A DNA stretch of 61,240 bases, filler included, from Rhabdomonas costata (lineage: Eukaryota): assembly GCA_019059605.1 (NCBI GenBank). It is 19 parts of 19 records of this genome, joined end to end, with 100 filler letters (N's around TTAATTAATTAA, not from the genome) between each part and the next. Parts side by side here need not be neighbours in the genome. Positions count along the whole stretch, not along the records: positions 1 to 3,133 come from JAHMHO010001319.1; 18 more parts are not named here. One strand, given 5' to 3'. A program made the translations under genes and the position numbers. A model generated the notes under the pieces. It was not told the origin of the DNA. It did no database searches and saw nothing but the letters and a program-made list of their open reading frames with translations. Position 1 is the stretch's first letter. Each line of letters opens with the position of its first letter. This document shows positions 1 through 18,761 of this stretch, piece by piece.

Positions 1-109
1 TTTTTTGTGGACATATTTGTTAGGCTGCTTTAAGGAGAAATGAAGCCATTTTCAGATCTATGCTGTTCACGCTGCCTGACGGTAGCCTGTTTTTTCCGTA
101 TCGATGCAG

Positions 110-2649
110 ATTTGCTCCAGAGGGTGACGTGCCTGGTTCTCGACCAAAACAATGGCAAGCTGTCCCTCTGCGCCAGCCGGAGGGAAGCGGAGAGCCTTGT
201 GCTAGGAAGCACTGCTCCTGACAGGCTGCACCTGATCGACCTTCCCACGGCGCTGCACCAGCCCGCTGCTGCACAAGAAATCTTCCACTTGACATACATA
301 TCCCGTGAGACGCATCGGTACACTGAGAAGCAGCTTCTGCAACTGGCAGGCAAAGCCCAGGCCTTCAACTTCCGGGTGGTTATCACAGGCTTCTTGATCT
401 ACTCCAAGCCCTTCTTCATTCAAACCATCGAGGGCTGTGAGGATGCCGTCCGGTACCTCTACGCTAAGATCGCACGAGATCCCGGCCATCGGGATTGCAT
501 CTTACTCTTTACGGAGAGAAGCCAGCAAAGGAGGTATGAAAACTGGAGCATGCAGACAGCGAACATCGACTCTCTGACTAGCTTTGCCCCCCTCCGAGTT
601 CTTTTATCCCATTTGAGCTACTCCTACGCCACCATGCGGAAGTACCTGCCCCTGCCCATCACGGAGATGATGGTGAGCGGGATCGACCCCACATCCTCGC
701 CGGCTCAAGCCGCGGAGTTGTTCGTGATGGTTACGGACATTGTCTCCTTCACCACCATCACTGAGAAGCTGGTGAATCCGGAAGCTGTGGGCGTCATAGT
801 AAACGCCTTTGTGGATGCTGTGACGAGGCAGGTTGAGTCGCACCGTGGGGTGGTGCTGAAGTTTCTTGGAGATTGTGTCACGGCATACTTTGAGCGACCC
901 AACGCGGCGGAAATGGTGGCGGCCTGCCAGGAGATTCTCACCGAGGTTGGGCTGATCCAGGCTGAGAAGGGGGTCTTCTCTGTGCTGAACTGCGGGGTGG
1001 GCATCGGCTATGGCACGGCAGTGCTGTGCTCAGTGGGGTTTCGGCGCAAGGACTACGCCTTGTTCGGTCCTGCGCTCATGGATGCCACCAAGATGGAGAG
1101 TCTGACACGTGAGGTGAAAGTCAAGCTACTCCTGTCGGCCGCGGCTGGGCAAGAGTGTCTTCGGCAAGGTTGCATCGGATACCTTTCTTGATTGGTGCTT
1201 TTTGATGACGTTACCAGGCTCCTCAAAGTGGTGGGAGACGCTGCATCTTTTGTGTTACTTCTTTTCTTTTTGGTCCTTTTAGGGCTGCCGCTGCGGGAAC
1301 TTTCTGCAGGATACACAGCCATTGCATCTGATGTAGAGCTGGAGCTGGACCTGAACCGAATCGCCGCCGATATTGCGAACTTACCTGCAGCTTTGCCCGT
1401 CTTCAGCCGGTCGCAGTCAACAATGTCCGACCTCACGAAGAAGACCATGGCTTTCTACATGCTTTTTGTAGCCGAGATCAGCGAAAAGCTCTCCAAGGAC
1501 GAAGCTTCTGCGCTTATCGGGCGTCTCGGGGTCAACCACGCTCGCTTTGGAATAACAGGAACTACAATATACGCCCACCCGATGCTGTTCTGCGCAATTG
1601 AAGGGCCGGAACAGCTTCTCCTGGACACGTACAAGAAAGCTCAAGATGAGCGCGCAGTGCACAAAGTGACGTTTCTGCTGCACCGTCCAACCGAAGACCG
1701 AGTGCACGCGGAGTGGGACTCTGAGGTCCACGAGATCACCTCGCTGACCTCTTTCAGCCCGTTATGCGCCACCGTGGAGCGTCTGGGGGTCGCCATGAGT
1801 GTGATGAAGAGCTTTCTTCCGCAGGTTGTCGCAGATGCACTGCTGCTCAACCAGGACCCCACCTGCCTGCCCACGCGCCGAGTCGAAATCTTTGCGATCT
1901 TCACCCATATCAGTTGCTTTCCCGATCTGCTGGAACTTTTTGGACTGGAAGCCGCTGTTCAGGCCGTCAACATCTACGCCGAGATCTGCGCCACTCGAGT
2001 GCTGGACAACGGAGGAGAGCTTTGCAAGTTTATCGGGGACGGTGTGCTGGCCTACTTCCCTGGTGGTGGGGGAGATGGGTTGTCCCGCTGTGTGATTTCC
2101 ATCCTTTCGGATGCCCGAGCGGTGCGCACGGCAGCAGACCGTCGCCACTCCAAGGCGCTGTTCTATGTGAGCCTGGGAGTGTCCTATGGCAAAGCCTTGA
2201 TGTGCTCCATTGGCAGCAATCGTTGTGACTACACACTGATGGGTGATACCATCAACACCGCGGCTCGAGTGCAGTCGATGTGTGAGAAGCTCAACCAGCC
2301 TGTGCTGACCTGTGAAGCCACGGCGACACTGGTGAGCTCGCTGAGCCTGTTTCCTTGCGGCTCTTTTCAGATGAAGGGCAAAGCCGGGGAGGCAAAGCTT
2401 TTTGCGCTGGACAGCTCCCAGACTGTTGAGCTGACATTGAGCACCACACAGCTGAGCATGAAGATGCGGGAGCTTCGTTTTTCGTCGGGAAATCGGTCAG
2501 TGCGTTCATCGGTATCCTCAATCGATGCCACCACCAAAGCAGGGGAGAAAGCGATGGATGCCGAAAGAAGAAATGAAGGCCGAACGTTGGCTTCTTCATT
2601 CACGTACGCTGGATCTTCTCGAGCTCGATCTCCTGAGGCTCTCCTGTGA
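110..2649 (+). CDS. Photoactivated adenylyl cyclase (PAC)-like protein, BLUF-cyclase-BLUF(degenerate)-cyclase; 5' end probably off-contig
   Basis: Exons about 110-1168 and 1283-2649 are joined in frame by a 114-nt GT-AG intron (1169-1282) that removes the TGA at 1189-1191. BLUF-A (about 280-555): LTYIS...N...ITGFL...FIQTIEG...DPGH...WSM. Cyclase-A: TDIVSFT...KFLGDCVTAYF. BLUF-B (about 1447-1725): GITG...IEG. Cyclase-B: KFIGDG...DYTLMGDTINTAARVQ...MKGK. A pyrimidine tract plus CAG at 107-109 suggests an upstream exon or a trans-splice acceptor. Confidence 0.9.
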
Positions 2650-3133
2650 GGCCCAAACTGTTGGTTGGTCCTGTGTTTTTCGAGTTTTTCGCTGAAAGTT
2701 TGCGTTCATTTCGGTTGGCTTTTCTTACTTGTGTTTGATTTGGTTTTTGATTTTGCGAATCCCTGATCTTTTTCTGATTTATACGGTCTTTCTTTTGCCA
2801 TTTTTATTTGACGTGTGTTTGCTCTGTGCCCTCACGGCGCGGCGTTGAGAGTGCCTGATGGGGACGTTGTGCTTTTTTCGATATATATTCCCGTGACTGG
2901 GAGGTAGAATTTACTCCTGCTTTGATCCATTGCTGTCCTACGTCCTGATTTAAAACCAGGACGGTTGTGGTGTGCACGGAGAAGAACCGTGTGGTGGTGT
3001 TACTTTTCGTCCTGGAGCGTCGTTCACGAGAGCCACATTGCATCTCTACGTCGACAGCACCCCCTTGCGCTCAACTTAGCACGTTTCTGCGCAGAGCACA
3101 GCTGTCTTCGACCTTTTTTTTGCCCACACACAA

Positions 3134-3233
3134 NNNNNNNNNNNNNNNNNNNNNNNNNNNNNNNNNNNNNNNNNNNNTTAATTAATTAANNNNNNNNNNN
3201 NNNNNNNNNNNNNNNNNNNNNNNNNNNNNNNNN
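3134..3233. other. Artificial contig spacer (N44-TTAATTAATTAA-N44), recurring about every 3.2 kb (18 spacers)
   Basis: The same N-flanked linker, with stops in all six frames, sits between every pair of contigs. Neighbouring contigs are therefore not biologically linked. Confidence 0.99.
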
Positions 3234-5243: not shown

Positions 5244-6639
5244 AAAGAAAGGAAAGGCTAAGAAGGAAAGGATCGACAACGTGCTCCCTTCACCTTCGCT
5301 TCAAAAACTGCCTTCCTCCTTTCTTCCCACCTCACTCCGCAATGATTCCTTCCTACATCCTCCTCCTGCTATTCAGCCCCCCCCCTCCACAACCTTTGCC
5401 TCCTTCTCCGAAAGAAAAACTAGCAAAGTGAACGTGGTGAAGAGAGAAAACTGTGCGTTTGGACGGTTTTGGACGTTTTTTTCTTTTGAAGTTTTGACTT
5501 TCGCCTTGCACGGTGTGTTGCGTAGTCCTCAGATGCACATCAGCTTCTTCTTCTTCCTCAAAGATAGTTAACAATTTGTGGATGCCTCTGCAGAGCATTT
5601 GCTAAGAATATTCATTTTTTCGAAATGCTATGTTCTTTTAGAAATAAACCATCACCACTTGATATCTCTCACGCGCGTTTTACCCAAAAACACAAGGCTT
5701 ACCGCATCCAGTCTTCGTTTTTTGCGCTATCAAATAAGTTTCGGATCAGAAACGAACTTGAGACTTGCGACCTGCCCCCAACAACTTATTTTGTTCCCTT
5801 CGTTTGGTTATCACGCGGCACGAATTTGTGAACGATCCACTTTTGAATGCTGTCGCGGACTTTTTCCGGGACTGAAATCTTTACAAAAAAGCCGCCGCCA
5901 TTTGCTACCGGCCATTTCCGGCAATGACCATGGAGGTACGGCCAAAAACGTGGCCGCTCCCCAATCTTTTGCCGTTTGCCCACCCAAGGCCCACCCAAGG
6001 AAAAGGAAGTGCCGATTTTTAAACGTCTTATGCCACCCCTCCTTTTGGATATGGGATTGAGGCAAGAAAGTTGAACTGTAACCGCCGGGCGCGGTGAAGT
6101 AATGTGTGTATTGACTATAACGCTCTACCAGGACTTCCCTGCGCTCGCGCTGTTCCCCGGGATGCTCAACCACACGTCAAAAGCCAATGCCCCTATGCCT
6201 CCGCAACAATGCTGTGGTTTAAAGCATGTTCGATATAGCCAATACGACACACCATGCCATAAGTTTGCAACAGGAGGCACCCGCATGCCTGATTCCTCCG
6301 GACAGTGGAATTTTCAATGCCCATCCTTGCCATACTTCCACCGCGCACTTGGCCACCACCAACNNNNNNNNNNNNNNNNNNNNNNNNNNNNNNNNNNNNN
6401 NNNNNNNTTAATTAATTAANNNNNNNNNNNNNNNNNNNNNNNNNNNNNNNNNNNNNNNNNNNNTGGGGGGAAAGCAGCGGTAACAGTTACCAGTGATAAC
6501 AGAAAACTGGCATGGTTTCAGCTATCCTGTTTCCCATTCCTTTATAGGGTGATCGTGTTTATTTTCGTTTCGCATTCCTTTGACAGCAGTGCGGTAATAG
6601 GAATATAGTTTTTCGTCTCCATCTTTCCTTTTTTCTCAG

Positions 6640-12226: not shown

Positions 12227-14762
12227 GTACTGTGCGCCTCTCGCTAAATCTCCCCCATCCCTCCAGCCTCCAGCCTTTCTAACGAGGCAGAAAAGGCTGC
12301 GATGCGGACCCCCATTGTGTCCATTGGCGGAGGCCCTTCAGGCCCTTCCTTTTTTATCTCACCCACTCTCTGTCGCTGCTTGATCAGGAAAGTTGCAGCC
12401 CACAGAGGTCCGAGAGTCCGAGATTACCTAGCCGGAAGTCGACGAGCAGTAGAAGAATGAAGGATGGCAAACAAGAGACCAAAACAGGGAAAACATAACA
12501 GCTCTCGGTTGTTGAACACCGTTTCATACAATTTGTTCGGCTGCGCTTCTATGTCGGGAATTACATGGCCGTTCATTTCAAGGCTCAGTTTGGTGTTCAG
12601 GGGCATTTGTCAACGCTGAACATGTGCCAAAACCTCAGTGATCACCTGCATTTAAATTATACGCAAATACTTTGACCCATTCAATTCTCTTTTCGCATGC
12701 CTTTCCGTTGCCTTAAACGCTGGAGCTGCCCGTGCCCCCCTCCCACAAGAAACAATGGAAACAATATTGAAGCCGCGTATCCGGCCTCTTTTCGCACCAC
12801 CATTGTCTTTGGGGGGGGGGGGGGGGNNNNNNNNNNNNNNNNNNNNNNNNNNNNNNNNNNNNNNNNNNNNTTAATTAATTAANNNNNNNNNNNNNNNNNN
12901 NNNNNNNNNNNNNNNNNNNNNNNNNNTCATTCCATTACATTTACAGGGAGGATACCAGTGGACTGAGGAAGGGCACAAACCAAACAAGAAGAAGAGAAAA
13001 GAGGAAGAAAAGGCCTAAGATCTGGCTAACACCCTTGGCAAGGAGGGAAAGGGTGGGATGGGGGTTATATCTCGTATTCCAGGTGATCCAACACGACTTC
13101 CTGCCCCGCATCTGAGAGCTTGGTCAAAAGGTCTCGGTAGAGTTGGTGGAAGTTCAGAGAGGACCCCCTAGTCCTGCAGTTGGTTCCCCCCCACAGAAGC
13201 ATTAGAAGTGGGAAAGCCGATAAGCAGGGAACGGTCGACATCAAGATTGCACAGAATACGGTTCGGAACTGTTTTGGTGCGATGTACTTTAGTGAGCGGT
13301 GGGTGAGGGTGCGAGAATAGCCAGGCTTCGCGGAAATACAGCAGGAAATTCACATGCCTAGTAACATCCCGAAACTGAGACAGAATTTAGAATGTGGCAT
13401 TTCGAACACAAGTCTTTTGGGTCAGTTTACGGTGTACCCTGCCGTATCTCATATCGAGGTTCGTGTGACGCCGGGCTGCATCCAAGAACTGCGGGGTCCA
13501 CATTCCAGTAATACACATTCTGCGGGGACTCGCATTTTTTTTGGGGGGGGGAGCAATGCTAAACGTTTTTAGCTTTAGAGGTTTTTTGGAATTCACGTTG
13601 CTGGGTTTTGCCAGACCAATGGGACAGGATTATATTGGAGCCAGAGGCCATTCCGCTGCGCGGCTGAAAAGGGTGTCATGGGGTGGACGATGCTCGGTTC
13701 ACAGTGTTCAACAACCAAAACAATCACTGAAACATGATGATGATGATGATGATGATGATAACGGGTGCGGAATTAGTAAAACCGTGTGCCGTGTACTACC
13801 GACTACCGCTAAAATCATTAACTTTTTTTGGGGGGGGGAAGGGCTTCGGCAAACTGATTTTCCGCGCCAGACATTTTTGAATTTTTTTTGGGGGGTTAAC
13901 AAGTTATGCCCTTACCACTGCCAAACTCAAACACCACTTGCGCGGTTTTGCAAATTTTTGTGGGTGATGGAGAGCTGAAGAAACGTACCTGCGGACTTCG
14001 AGCACGCTGTTCTCACCCTTACGCCTGACGGTGATGTTGAAGGAAACCAAATCGCCCTGAAAGCGCACGTTTTGTTGCAGCGTCGAATGCAAGACCTGCA
14101 GTATATAACGAGTTTCGTGGCAGCGTCAACAGCAACACCTGGTGAATCTACAGTATGCCAAACTGAATCGAAGCGCTTCCCATCGCCCAACCAGTGAGCA
14201 GTGCATCATTTGTACTGGTGCCATTCCGAGGATGAGTGAAATTGGAGGTAGAATAAATGAAGAGTCCGCAGCCTTCCGCCCTGTCCATATGCCGGTCCGC
14301 TCTCCTTTTCGGATAATGGCGCGTTTCATCTCAAAAGGGAGAGTTTCTGACACAAACAGAGAAAATGATGAACATATGAAGAAAATGCACGGCTGATGCG
14401 CAATGTCTTTCACTCACCATGCGACAAACAGAAGCAGCCCATAATCTTTAGCAAAGTGTTGAAAACCTTCCGAAACATTGCCGCTCGTTTTGGGAAGAGG
14501 AAACTATGGCACTCATTCCACCTGCGCAAGCTCAGAAAAAACACCTCTAGGAAATGTAGACTATAAAGCTCGAAAATGTACCCCCCGCTTCAAATTCAAA
14601 ATTCGTCTTCCCGAAAACCCTTTCCACCTCTCGCATCTGAGCTGAAATGGGCAATATCCCTTTGCCAGGGTAGACTGAGACGCGTAGACAGCAAACCGCC
14701 CGTCACTCCTGCAGACATGCACACAGTTATGACACAAATAACGCAAGCTTGCACACACAAAC

Positions 14763-17448: not shown

Positions 17449-18761
17449 ATGATTGCGCTTCCTGACGACATACTGGTCTGCAGCTTTTTGTACCTGAAGC
17501 TCAAGCCCAGCTCATTGTGCGGCTGGTCTGTCGGCGTTTTCAAGCGCTAGTGGATGAGTTCCTGGTCCCGAAGTGGAGGGTAGTGCTCCGCCTTCGCAAG
17601 GCCTTCCCAACTCGCGTGGAGCGTGAAGTTGTACTTGGGAGCTTGTGGCTGGGCTGCTCCGCTGCGGAGATTTTCGTCGAAGTTGTCATTTTGGAGCTCT
17701 TCCACTGGAGTGGCGCGACAGAAGCCGCGGCATTGTCTAGCACTTCTCTCTTCCCCAACCTCACTTCTTTAAGTATTGTGGAAAACCATTTTACCAGCTG
17801 CAGGTGCGGGGCACGTGCAATGCGAGCGTTAGCGGCCTCATCGCCGTTTCTTCACCTCAGGTCTTTGGATGTGGGTGGAAACTGGATCGGAGCAGCTGGA
17901 ATGCAAGCACTTGTGGTCCGTCCCTTGTTTCCCGGCCTGACGTCTCTGAATATCGATGGCAATCAGATAGCGGTATCGGGGATGCAAGCCCTTGCGGCTT
18001 CCCCGTTTTTTTCTAACCTCACGTCACTGAATGTCGGTGGAAATGGCATCAGTGATGCAGGAATTCGAGCACTTGCGGCTTCTCCTCATTTCCCGAATCT
18101 GACTTCCTTGGTATTGAGCAGCAACCAGATCTTGAATGCAGGTATGCAGGCTTTTGCTGCTTCCCCCTTTCATCAAAAGCTCACGTCCTTGAATCTGAGC
18201 TACAACTCCATCCACGCTGAAGGAATGCAGGCGCTCGCCGCTACATCTTTTCTTTCCAATCTTGTGTCCTTGAATGTGTCCGGCAATACTTGTGGAGGGA
18301 TGGGGTATCTTCTGCCTACTTCGGCTGTCCTTGCCAAGCTCGCCTTTCTGGATGTGAGCCTCTGCATCCACATGACACCAGTTGCGAATGCATTTGTGGC
18401 TACAGCTCCGGTTACCAGCCTGATGGCTTTAGACGTCAGCAACAACCAGCTCGGTGATGCGGGTATAGGAGCGCTGGCCACTTCATGCTCCTTCCCCAAT
18501 CTTACATCGTTGAAGGCACGCAGCGTCAATTTCGGAAATGTTGGAATGCAAGCACTGGCGACTTCGGCGTCCTTCCCCCATCTCAGCTCCCTGGATCTCT
18601 GGTTCAATCATATTGATGACGCCGGGATGCATGCCTTCGCGGCTTCTCCGTTTTTTCCCAAACTCAAGTTGCTGGAGGTGTGTCATAACAATGTCGGAGG
18701 TTCCGGAAAAAGGGCGGTTGTGTGCTCATCATTCTTCCTCGGCATCCGCGTGTTGTTGTAG
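17449..18761 (+). pseudogene. Intronless F-box plus leucine-rich-repeat protein with a frameshift in the F-box
   Basis: MIALPDDILVCSFLYLKL is in one frame and AQLIVRLVCRRFQALVDEFL in the -1 frame (shift near 17500). About 11 LRRs of about 27 aa follow (FPNLTSLNVGGNGISDAGIRALAASPH type). Confidence 0.75.

What the first reader, a model, noticed from the sequence alone, without database searches (positions are those of the whole stretch)
110..2649. PAC-like photoreceptor with reversed module order, or a third module
Seen: the first cyclase keeps both metal-binding Asp (TDIVSFT, GDCVTAYF) but lacks the Asn/Arg pair (MDATK). The second has INTAAR but His at the first Asp position (THISCF). From my recollection of Euglena gracilis PACalpha/beta (F1-C1-F2-C2), it is C2 that reads TDICSFT/GDCVTAYF/ACQEI/ALTRE and C1 that reads DFTLLGDCINTASR. 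Here an F2-C2-like module therefore precedes a C1-like module. The upstream linker (DRLHLI) resembles the recalled C1-F2 linker (DRLSLI). Inference: this is either a circularly permuted PAC or a three-module F-C-F-C-F-C protein. Either would be an architecture I do not know to be described, and it is of optogenetic interest.
Basis: partly seen in the sequence, partly recalled or inferred. Interest (0 to 1): 0.85.

Follow-up and report, generated by a model that had tools for sequence, protein, structure and literature searches.

The report
Reversed-order tandem BLUF–cyclase photoreceptor gene
This is a gene for a blue-light-sensing, cAMP-making enzyme related to the Euglena photoreceptor PAC, whose two complementary half-active-sites stand in the opposite order to nearly all relatives and whose second light sensor looks dead; it is a new variant of a known photoreceptor type, not a new kind.

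Summary
Contig 1..3133 is one of 19 short contigs joined by linkers. It carries two BLUF + class III cyclase modules in one reading frame, interrupted by a single TGA at 1189-1191. Module A keeps both metal Asp and lacks Thr/Asn/Arg. Module B has His at the first Asp and keeps Lys/Thr/Asn/Arg.

Of the 16 other two-cyclase relatives tabulated, 14 have the opposite order, one is ambiguous, and only P0049 shares the window's order.

The TGA most likely lies in a 114-nt GT-AG intron, 1169-1282, which gives one chain of 831 aa. This is not proven.

BLUF-B has lost the Tyr, Asn, Gln and Met of the photocycle.

Not supported:
- A third module: no remnant on the contig, and TAA at 31-33 precedes ATG 40.
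- The linker resemblance DRLHLI/DRLSLI, which is at chance level.

Trees neither establish nor reject circular permutation. The closest relatives are only 32-35% identical.

Verdict: a new variant of a known kind, of moderate interest.

The parts
1..3133 (+). The whole contig that carries the gene. Its neighbours in the window are unrelated contigs joined by N44-TTAATTAATTAA-N44 linkers.
   Evidence: 19 contigs of 3124-3137 bases, in roughly descending order of length. The first runs 1..3133.
31..42 (+). In-frame TAA (31-33), then the candidate start codon ATG (40-42).
   Evidence: Sequence read; ORF list. Whether ATG 40 is the true start is inferred, not shown. Coding score for 34-93 is negative (-0.32).
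40..1168 (+). Proposed exon 1: N-terminal leader, BLUF-A, and most of cyclase A.
283..555 (+). BLUF-A. Photocycle residues are intact: Tyr, Asn, Gln, Trp, Met.
   Evidence: Pfam BLUF 1.9e-23, residues 84-174 of ORF A. Residue table.
700..1167 (+). Cyclase A, the 'metal' half-site. Both metal Asp (TDIVSFT 733-753; GDCVTAYF in 859-891) and Lys are kept. Thr/Asn/Arg are replaced by Ala/Met/Lys (1063-1113).
   Evidence: Pfam Guanylate_cyc 2.3e-10. My own cyclase profile covers residues 221-376. Residues; coordinates.
1169..1282 (+). Candidate GT-AG intron of 114 nt, a multiple of three. It holds the in-frame TGA at 1189-1191. The acceptor is preceded by 18 of 20 pyrimidines.
   Evidence: Leu codon CTG 0/11 here against 33/66 in confident coding (p=0.0018). 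GC3 17/37 against 424/607 (p=0.0034). pLDDT about 50 for the residues it would encode. No RNA evidence.
1283..2649 (+). Proposed exon 2: end of the cyclase A fold, a short linker, BLUF-B, cyclase B, a tail of about 80 residues, and the stop TGA at 2647-2649.
   Evidence: coding score 0.55-0.86 at 1300-1389; pLDDT 91 for model residues 361-370.
1456..1719 (+). BLUF-B. The fold is kept but the photocycle residues are lost: Tyr->Phe, Asn->His, Gln->Cys, Met->Ser.
   Evidence: Pfam BLUF 2.2e-07, 31.3 bits, cut-off 25. Residue table. The AlphaFold2 model shows full BLUF topology, pLDDT 84-89 over residues 11-70.
1867..2460 (+). Cyclase B, the 'substrate/transition-state' half-site. First metal Asp -> His (THISCF, 1903-1920). 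Lys, second Asp, Thr, Asn and Arg are kept (DYTLMGDTINTAAR 2227-2268).
   Evidence: My own cyclase profile covers positions 3-201. Residues. AlphaFold2 pLDDT 90-98.
2650..3133 (+). T-rich flank after the stop, with no coding signal. Taken as 3' UTR or intergenic sequence.

Best explanation
One nuclear gene of an unidentified intron-bearing eukaryote encodes a single chain of about 831 residues: leader - BLUF-A - cyclase A - short linker - BLUF-B - cyclase B - tail. The one in-frame TGA is removed with a 114-nt GT-AG intron (1169-1282).

Class III cyclase sites form at a dimer interface. Neither domain here has a full residue set, so the two cyclase domains should pair within the chain, as the C1 and C2 domains of membrane adenylyl cyclases do. 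That would give one working ATP site. Cyclase A would supply the two metal-binding Asp. Cyclase B would supply the adenine-reading Lys and Thr and the transition-state Asn and Arg. The mirror site is dead.

Only BLUF-A can run the flavin photocycle. BLUF-B keeps the fold and would serve as the structural partner in the alpha3-helix bundle that passes the light signal to the cyclase pair in bPAC and OaPAC. The predicted output is blue-light-stimulated cAMP.

The order 'metal half first' is the reverse of euglenid PACalpha/beta and of 14 of the 16 other two-cyclase relatives tabulated. It is shared with one other protein, P0049.

Shown: the domains, the residues, their order, the single frame, and how rare the order is. 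Inferred: the splicing, the start codon, the pairing, flavin binding and light activation.
For: Domains: Pfam BLUF + Guanylate_cyc in both ORFs; bacterial PAC structures are the best PDB matches.

Residues: A = D,K,D/A,M,K; B = H,K,D/T,N,R. BLUF-A = Y,N,Q,W,M; BLUF-B = F,H,C,W,S.

One chain:
- Both ORFs share a frame, with 77 stop-free codons between the TGA and the first ATG of ORF B (1423) and no ATG among them.
- The coding score is high at 1300-1389 (0.55-0.86).
- In the AlphaFold2 model of read-through module A, residues 361-370, which lie after the TGA, reach pLDDT 91.
- That model aligns to bPAC 5mbc_A over model residues 3-373: Z 33.3, rmsd 3.0, 335 aligned of 342.

Intron:
- GT at 1169 and AG at 1281-1282, behind 18/20 pyrimidines.
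- Leu CTG 0/11 inside, against 33/66 in confident coding (p=0.0018) and 5/8 just after the acceptor (p=0.0048). GC3 is 17/37 against 424/607 (p=0.0034).
- The residues it would encode have pLDDT about 50.
- Four of six other exon fragments in the window begin at a pyrimidine tract + CAG.

Order is real, not an edge effect: P0049 is one uninterrupted 678-residue ORF, BLUF - cyclase (D,K,D/S,N,M) - spacer - cyclase (N,K,N/T,N,R). It is collinear with the window protein (35% and 23% identity). Its first cyclase is sister to cyclase A (99/96*; 96/68 with catalytic columns dropped). Its second groups with cyclase B once those columns are dropped (91/88).

[quoted passage not shown] The split of roles between the two subunits is established knowledge of class III cyclases (recalled, from the mammalian C1/C2 structures).
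Against: No RNA evidence exists for the intron, the start or the end.

Against the intron:
- The donor AAG|GTTGCA matches only GT.
- The segment it would remove reads, after the TGA, somewhat like the last beta-hairpin of cyclase B (global alignment).
- The spliced product leaves about 10 fewer residues there than module B has.
- A profile of the family's C-terminal part cannot tell the two versions apart (-0.5 against -1.5 bits; module B scores 18.3).
- The AlphaFold2 model places a low-confidence strand at residues 307-310, inside the intron-encoded residues 300-337.

Against the stated start: the coding score of 34-93 is negative (-0.32). An acceptor-like site (pyrimidine tract + CAG) ends at 109, so an upstream exon beyond the contig end cannot be excluded.

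Against the stated end: a donor-like CG|GTCAGT lies at 2496, and the coding score of the tail is weak, so the chain might continue.

P0049 begins with Leu four residues before the BLUF Tyr. It may be cut at a contig edge, so it does not prove that nothing precedes the first BLUF.

Pairing of the two cyclase domains was not tested: complex prediction never accepted the job because its queue was full.

The gene could be a recently disabled copy.
Confidence: 0.55

Rival explanations
1. The TGA is inside coding sequence. It is either a very recent nonsense mutation (a disabled copy) or a base error from DNA amplification or assembly, for example TGG read as TGA. The true or ancestral product would be a two-module chain of 869 residues with a 38-residue longer cyclase A tail.
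For: - One stop in 870 codons, with the frame kept on both sides.
- The segment after the TGA aligns loosely with the last hairpin of cyclase B.
- AlphaFold2 puts a strand at residues 307-310 of the read-through model.
- Contig ends are G/T-rich at 5' and C/A-rich at 3'. From recall, this resembles primer-based whole-genome amplification, which is error-prone.
Against: - Codon usage inside 1169-1282 is unlike the gene's: Leu CTG 0/11 against 33/66, p=0.0018; GC3 17/37 against 424/607, p=0.0034. It switches back right after the AG (5/8 CTG).
- A strong pyrimidine tract + AG at 1282 matches other acceptors in the window.
- pLDDT is about 50 for these residues.
Confidence: 0.18
2. The gene continues upstream of the contig. 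What is seen is the last two modules of a chain with three or more modules, or an upstream standard module joins at an acceptor near 109.
For: - The contig starts only 39 nt before ATG 40.
- An acceptor-like pyrimidine tract + CAG ends at 109.
- The coding score of 34-93 is negative.
- Module A scores marginally best against the second module of PACalpha, with its preceding linker (157 against 155 bits).
Against: - An in-frame TAA at 31-33 followed by ATG 40.
- A leader of 85 residues before the BLUF Tyr is within the range of first modules elsewhere (24-101).
- The linker likeness is at chance (406/1000 and 192/1000 shuffles).
- No BLUF or cyclase remnant in 1-300.
- No relative with three modules was seen among the proteins whose domains were mapped with my own profiles.
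Confidence: 0.12
3. Two separate genes lie head to tail. Gene A ends at TGA 1189. Gene B starts at ATG 1423, using the pyrimidine tract + AG at 1282 as a trans-splice acceptor. The products would pair in trans, or the contig spans the 3' half of one standard PAC gene and the 5' half of the next.
For: - A stop codon, then a pyrimidine tract + AG, then an ATG ten residues before BLUF-B. This layout is typical of polycistronic units in Euglenozoa (recalled).
- The closest named relatives are euglenozoan.
Against: - Cyclase A would end 13 residues after profile position 162 of about 206, and so lack the end of the fold.
- There are 77 stop-free codons between the TGA and ATG 1423. That is about 0.025 by (61/64)^77, my arithmetic.
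- The coding score is 0.55-0.86 at 1300-1389.
- pLDDT is 91 for residues encoded at about 1351-1380.
- P0049 carries the same order in one uninterrupted ORF.
Confidence: 0.08
4. The A-B junction is an artefact: an amplification or assembly chimera that joined the second half of one standard PAC-like gene to the first half of another.
For: The assembly is very fragmented. Relatives form large paralogue families (PMC6366073, passages).
Against: - The junction would have to fall in the roughly 50 nt between the end of the cyclase A fold and BLUF-B while keeping strand and frame.
- P0049, from an independent record, has the same order.
- Neither module is close to any known paralogue (at most 35% identity).
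Confidence: 0.04

Closest known systems
Euglenid photoactivated adenylyl cyclase PACalpha/PACbeta (Euglena gracilis, E. stellata, Colacium sideropus; P0038, P0037, P0001)
   Same: Two BLUF + class III cyclase modules in one chain. The half-sites are complementary, so one composite site is expected. These are the best full-length matches in 1.84 billion representatives (1.7e-85 and 8.9e-79).
   Different: - Only 32% identical.
- The half-site order is reversed: PAC has first module Y,K,G/T,N,R and second D,K,D/V,A,E.
- Both PAC BLUFs keep Tyr/Asn/Gln, whereas BLUF-B here has lost them.
- The inter-module linker is about 25 residues, against about 70.
- There is no long C-terminal extension.
- Neither module falls inside the euglenid module clades in the whole-module tree, although AU tests do not reject that (p=0.146 and 0.246).
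P0049 (678 aa, unnamed record on a 52-kb contig, held by JGI/IMG and NCBI; called 'adenylate cyclase' by one source)
   Same: It has the same reversed order: BLUF - cyclase with both Asp - cyclase with Thr/Asn/Arg and no Asp. It is collinear with the window protein (35% identity over 289 residues, 23% over 179). Its first cyclase is sister to cyclase A (99/96*).
   Different: - No detectable second BLUF: a spacer of about 250 residues instead.
- Very A+T-rich coding, against 54% G+C here.
- Both Asp are lost in its second cyclase (N,N), against H,D here.
- Its origin is unknown. It was not found in viral, metagenome or prokaryote genome contig scans.
PAC-like paralogues of Euglena gracilis and E. 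longa, and of Entosiphon, Petalomonas, Rhynchopus (diplonemid) and Thecamonas
   Same: Tandem BLUF-cyclase proteins with complementary degenerate half-sites. Some also have a degenerate BLUF in the Asn/Arg-type module: JGI820 Gln->Glu, Thecamonas Gln->His, E. gracilis transcript 1657. A subfamily with 'one or two BLUF domains with a double NCIII domain' is noted in PMC6366073 (passages).
   Different: All 11 of these that are two-cyclase proteins have the Asn/Arg half first. Identity to the window protein is 27-31%.
Bacterial single-module PACs: bPAC (Beggiatoa) and OaPAC (Oscillatoria), solved structures 5m27/5mbc and 4yus
   Same: Each window module matches them end to end. The module A model against 5mbc_A gives Z 33.3, rmsd 3.0, 335 of 342 aligned. 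Sequence E-values are 2.4e-41 and 3.4e-34. The proposed signal path (alpha3 bundle to the cyclase interface) is taken from them (PMC6937261).
   Different: They are homodimers of one complete module, with two equal sites and two working BLUFs. All 12 single-module rows printed have D,K,D and Thr and Asn; 8 of 12 also have Arg. Here two unlike modules are fused and each is incomplete.
Mammalian membrane adenylyl cyclase C1/C2 pseudo-heterodimer (for example 1cjk)
   Same: One chain, two class III domains, one composite site, with the metal-Asp domain first and the Lys/Asn/Arg domain second. This is the same order as here (recalled knowledge). 1cjk_A appears among the fold matches at Z 18.7.
   Different: It has no BLUF sensors, is membrane-anchored and G-protein regulated, and is only distantly related in sequence.

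Membership tests
BLUF-coupled class III adenylyl cyclases (PAC in the broad sense) | BLUF domain directly followed by a class III cyclase catalytic domain | tested here: met
   Pfam BLUF + Guanylate_cyc above the curated cut-offs in both ORFs. Models of both modules have PAC topology. Z 33.3 to bPAC.
BLUF-coupled class III adenylyl cyclases (PAC in the broad sense) | Photocycle residues of BLUF (Tyr, Gln, plus flavin-contacting Asn and Met/Trp) | tested here: met
   Met for BLUF-A (Y,N,Q,W,M). Not met for BLUF-B (F,H,C,W,S). One competent sensor is enough for the broad family.
BLUF-coupled class III adenylyl cyclases (PAC in the broad sense) | A complete catalytic residue set at a dimer interface, with Lys/Thr (ATP) specificity | tested here: met
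   The set is complete only when the modules are combined: D,D from A; K,T,N,R from B. That the domains pair is inferred, not tested.
BLUF-coupled class III adenylyl cyclases (PAC in the broad sense) | Flavin binding and blue-light-stimulated cAMP synthesis | not testable with these tools
   Needs expression and assay.
Euglenid PACalpha/beta (F1-C1-F2-C2) | Two modules in one polypeptide | tested here: inconclusive
   One frame, with a single TGA inside a plausible intron. No RNA evidence.
Euglenid PACalpha/beta (F1-C1-F2-C2) | Order of half-sites: first cyclase without metal Asp but with Thr/Asn/Arg; second with both Asp and without Asn/Arg | tested here: not met
   The order is reversed in the window.
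Euglenid PACalpha/beta (F1-C1-F2-C2) | Both BLUF domains keep Tyr/Asn/Gln | tested here: not met
   BLUF-B has F/H/C. All three PACalpha/beta rows have Y/N/Q in both modules.
Euglenid PACalpha/beta (F1-C1-F2-C2) | Modules fall inside the euglenid first-module and second-module clades | tested here: inconclusive
   - Both window modules lie outside those clades (each 100/99*) in the whole-module tree.
- AU tests do not reject inclusion (p=0.146 and 0.246).
- In the cyclase-only tree, A is sister to all Asp-type second cyclases (87/57).
- B with all Asn/Arg-type first cyclases gives a slightly better likelihood (p-AU 0.628).
- No deep signal is left after dropping the catalytic columns.
Euglenid PACalpha/beta (F1-C1-F2-C2) | Conserved C1-F2 linker motif (DSLVDRL.(L/M)IAKL in the three PACalpha/beta sequences) | tested here: not met
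   The pre-BLUF-A leader is no more like that linker than shuffled versions are (406, 192 and 883 of 1000 shuffles reach the score).

The most novel reading that the evidence does not exclude
The contig shows only part of a longer chain, with a further BLUF-cyclase module (or more) joined upstream of position 110 through an intron. That would make a natural photoreceptor of three or more modules in which Asp-type and Asn/Arg-type cyclase domains alternate. No relative with such an architecture was seen here. A milder novel reading, which I think more likely (about 0.35), is that the window protein and P0049 form a separate lineage of single-chain 'one-eyed' PACs, made by permuting an ancestral tandem.
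Probability: 0.1. Interest if true: 0.7.

Novelty: new variant of a known kind. Interest (0 to 1): 0.45.

Why it matters
PACs are the standard optogenetic tools for raising cAMP with light. Two designs are in use: the large four-domain Euglena subunits, and the small bacterial homodimers with two sensors and two sites.

A natural single chain with one working sensor, one structural pseudo-sensor and one composite active site would be a third design. It would let one ask directly how much of the light signal one BLUF can carry across the helix bundle. It also offers a scaffold in which sensor and catalytic halves can be changed independently.

For evolution, the finding bears on how class III cyclases split their active site after duplication. 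They do so repeatedly: in membrane cyclases, in euglenid PACs and here. The window shows that either order can result.

These are modest gains. The family, its domain types and the principle of complementary degeneration are all known. Expression and light response remain untested.

Tried and rejected
Tools that were not available:
- The window's own genome is not held.
So there was no upstream sequence, no reads and no RNA.

Searches for close relatives with flanks:
- Metagenome contigs with exon 1 found none.
- P0049 in viral contigs, metagenome contigs and genome contigs found none.
- A word-based protein search with ORF A, longer proteins only, found one PAC (Colacium) among 35 hits.

Other searches that found nothing:
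- Rfam and tRNA scans of the whole window.
- The bacterial promoter/terminator scan, which does not apply to a eukaryote.
- Taxon of the source: an ABC-transporter exon gave no hit, so the organism's proteome is not in that collection. I did not pursue the origin further.

Ideas tested and dropped:
- TGA read as a sense codon. The gene has TGG 2 and TGA 2 in 870 codons. The second TGA ends the ORF before a T-rich stretch with no coding signal. I therefore saw no reason to assume recoding.
- The linker motif as evidence of homology: rejected.
- My by-eye match of the post-acceptor tail to PACalpha second-module tails is mostly at chance: z 1.55 for Colacium, -0.31 for E. gracilis, 4.42 for E. 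stellata.
- A profile of the family's C-terminal part could not decide between the spliced and unspliced forms.
- Alternative in-frame GT..AG pairs are listed. The donor at 1109 (GTGAGG) looks better as a signal, but it would delete a conserved strand that aligns with relatives.

Complex prediction for cyclase A with cyclase B never ran.

Literature searches listed no paper describing a PAC with this order. They cover open-access text only. I read only search listings, plus passages of PMC8911436, PMC6366073, PMC8130358 and PMC6937261. Supplements were not opened; the PAC-family trees in the supplements of PMC6366073 could bear on the novelty claim.
Full report
**What the window is.** The 61,240 bases are not one locus. 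Runs of 44 N around TTAATTAATTAA split the window into 19 contigs of 3124-3137 bases, in roughly descending order of length. The finding lies on the first, 1..3133, so nothing beyond 3133 bears on it, and the window start is a contig end.

Most contigs begin G/T-rich and end C/A-rich. From recall this resembles primer-based whole-genome amplification; I did not pursue the origin.

The other contigs carry partial domain matches (SpoU, mitochondrial carrier, ABC-2, cytochrome b5, WDR3, LRR). These were found in 9 of 138 ORFs of 110 aa or more. Four of the six exon fragments I inspected start at a pyrimidine tract + CAG. The source is therefore an intron-bearing eukaryote. No whole genome, reads or earlier notes were available.

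**The observation.** It is correct.
- Frame 1 holds ORF A (34..1191) and ORF B (1192..2649).
- Each has a BLUF and a class III cyclase domain above Pfam's cut-offs.
- Each matches the solved bacterial PACs end to end.

In a family alignment, module A reads D,K,D / A,M,K at the six catalytic positions: metal Asp 1, Lys, metal Asp 2, Thr, Asn, Arg. Module B reads H,K,D / T,N,R.

**Is it one gene?** The two ORFs share a frame and are parted by one TGA (1189-1191).
- After the TGA come 77 stop-free codons before the first ATG of ORF B (1423), with no ATG among them.
- A codon-usage score trained on the domain regions is high at 1300-1389 (0.55-0.86 bits per codon).
- An AlphaFold2 model of module A, read through the TGA, is confident to residue 300, drops to about 50 for residues 301-350, and rises to 91 for 361-370.
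- The model aligns to bPAC over residues 3-373 (Z 33.3, rmsd 3.0, 335 of 342 aligned).

So sequence downstream of the TGA appears to belong to the fold of module A. That argues against two separate genes.

**The TGA.** The best reading is a 114-nt GT-AG intron, 1169-1282.
- Its acceptor follows 18 pyrimidines in 20 and resembles other acceptors in the window.
- Inside it, none of 11 Leu codons is CTG, against 33 of 66 in the confident coding parts (p=0.0018) and 5 of 8 right after the AG (p=0.0048).
- GC3 is 17/37 against 424/607 (p=0.0034).

Against it:
- The donor is weak (AAG|GTTGCA).
- The removed segment, read through, loosely resembles the last hairpin of cyclase B.
- The spliced tail is about 10 residues shorter than that of module B.
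- A profile of the family's C-terminal part cannot decide.

A base error or a recent nonsense mutation therefore remains a live rival. TGA as a sense codon has no support: the gene uses TGG twice and TGA only at 1189 and at the ORF end.

**The ends.** ATG 40 follows an in-frame TAA at 31-33. The 85-residue leader is within the range of first modules elsewhere. However, the contig starts 39 nt upstream, an acceptor-like site ends at 109, and the first 20 codons score as non-coding.

No BLUF or cyclase remnant lies in 1-300 or 2400-3133. The DRLHLI likeness to the PACalpha linker is at chance: 406 and 192 of 1000 shuffles reach the score. A third module is therefore unsupported, though not excluded.

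**Relatives.** An exhaustive HMMER search of 1.84 billion representatives found 53 proteins at E<=1e-30.
- The best are euglenid PACbeta and PACalpha at 32% identity.
- Next come unnamed E. gracilis and E. longa transcripts, a diplonemid (Rhynchopus), Thecamonas, Petalomonas, Entosiphon and metagenome proteins.
- No representative is closer than 35% identical, so this gene has no near relative in that collection.

I mapped BLUF and cyclase domains with profiles of my own and tabulated the catalytic residues of all 17 two-cyclase proteins.
- 14 have the Asn/Arg-type domain first and the Asp-type second.
- One (ENA718) is ambiguous.
- Two have the reverse order: the window and P0049.

P0049 is one uninterrupted ORF of 678 residues: BLUF - Asp-type cyclase - spacer - Asn/Arg-type cyclase. 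It is collinear with the window protein. This independent record makes an assembly artefact unlikely.

**Trees.**
- Whole modules, 56 rows, careful search: module A + P0049 (97/81*), then module B (96/74). This group lies outside the euglenid first-module and second-module clades (each 100/99*).
- AU tests do not reject A within the euglenid second modules (p=0.146) or B within the first modules (p=0.246).
- Cyclase domains only, 58 rows: A + P0049_c1 (99/96*), sister to all Asp-type second cyclases (87/57).
- Forcing B into the Asn/Arg-type group gives a slightly better likelihood than the free search found (p-AU 0.628).
- With 29 columns around the catalytic motifs removed, these deep groupings dissolve. 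This suggests they owe much to shared losses. A + P0049_c1 (96/68) and B + (P0049_c2 + Petalomonas_c1) (91/88) remain. The bootstrap had not settled in that run, and long branches meet there.

The window protein and P0049 are therefore probably collinear relatives. Whether their order arose by permuting an ancestral tandem or by a separate duplication is not resolved.

**Mechanism (inferred).** Class III cyclases act as dimers with sites at the interface. One subunit gives the metal Asp pair; the other gives Lys, Thr/Asp, Asn and Arg. This is established knowledge, recalled.
- Here only the pairing A·B gives a full set, and only one of the two possible sites is complete. Lys/Thr predicts ATP as substrate.
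- BLUF-A has all the photocycle residues.
- BLUF-B has Phe, His, Cys and Ser in place of Tyr, Asn, Gln and Met, yet it models as a full BLUF fold.
- In OaPAC the two alpha3 helices form a bundle reaching the cyclase domains (PMC6937261, passages).

I therefore propose one live sensor and one structural partner controlling one site. In three other tandem proteins it is likewise the BLUF of the Asn/Arg-type module that is degenerate.

**Comparison and verdict.** The protein works like a PAC and belongs to the broad BLUF-cyclase family. It fails three defining features of euglenid PACalpha/beta: half-site order, two intact BLUFs and the linker motif. It should not be filed as a PACalpha/beta orthologue.

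That E. gracilis holds photosensor cyclases with 'one or two BLUF domains with a double NCIII domain' is in print (PMC6366073, passages). I found no description of the reversed order in five full-text searches. Those cover open-access text only, and I opened no supplements.

This is a new variant of a known kind, of moderate interest.

Noticed in passing
window 1-61240 (linkers at 3134-3233, 6364-6463, and so on): The window is 19 separate contigs of about 3.13 kb, in roughly descending order of length, joined by N44-TTAATTAATTAA-N44. Findings that span a linker would be artefacts.
   Followed up: partly
window 38753-41889 (ORF 40120-40824 +): One contig has 33% G+C, against 50-57% for most of the others (one is 44%). 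It carries an ORF with a Pox_A32-type packaging ATPase match (E 2.9e-06, 27.4 bits, cut-off 22.8). It may come from a large DNA virus, a virophage-like element, or another organism in the sample.
   Followed up: no
window 17466-18758 +: An uninterrupted 431-residue ORF made of LRR_6 (RNI-type) leucine-rich repeats (E 2.5e-39). It is the only other long ORF in the window.
   Followed up: no
window 2496-2501: Donor-like CG|GTCAGT inside the C-terminal tail of ORF B, where the coding score is weak. The chain might continue in an exon beyond the contig.
   Followed up: partly
It could be a cis- or trans-splice acceptor, in which case ATG 40 would not be the start.
   Followed up: partly
P0050 and cluster members (ENA, 688-872 aa): A metagenome protein family with the architecture cyclase - BLUF - cyclase: an Asn/Arg-type cyclase first, with no BLUF detected before it in the 688-residue form. 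This is yet another layout in the family.
   Followed up: partly
JGI820 (P0044), Thecamonas (P0045), E. gracilis transcript 1657 (P0054): In these tandem proteins, as in the window, the degenerate BLUF (Gln->Glu, Gln->His, or several losses) belongs to the Asn/Arg-type module. This hints at a recurrent trend towards one working sensor.
   Followed up: no
window 12811-12826: The contig ends in a run of at least 15 G. This is probably a sequencing or assembly artefact.
   Followed up: no
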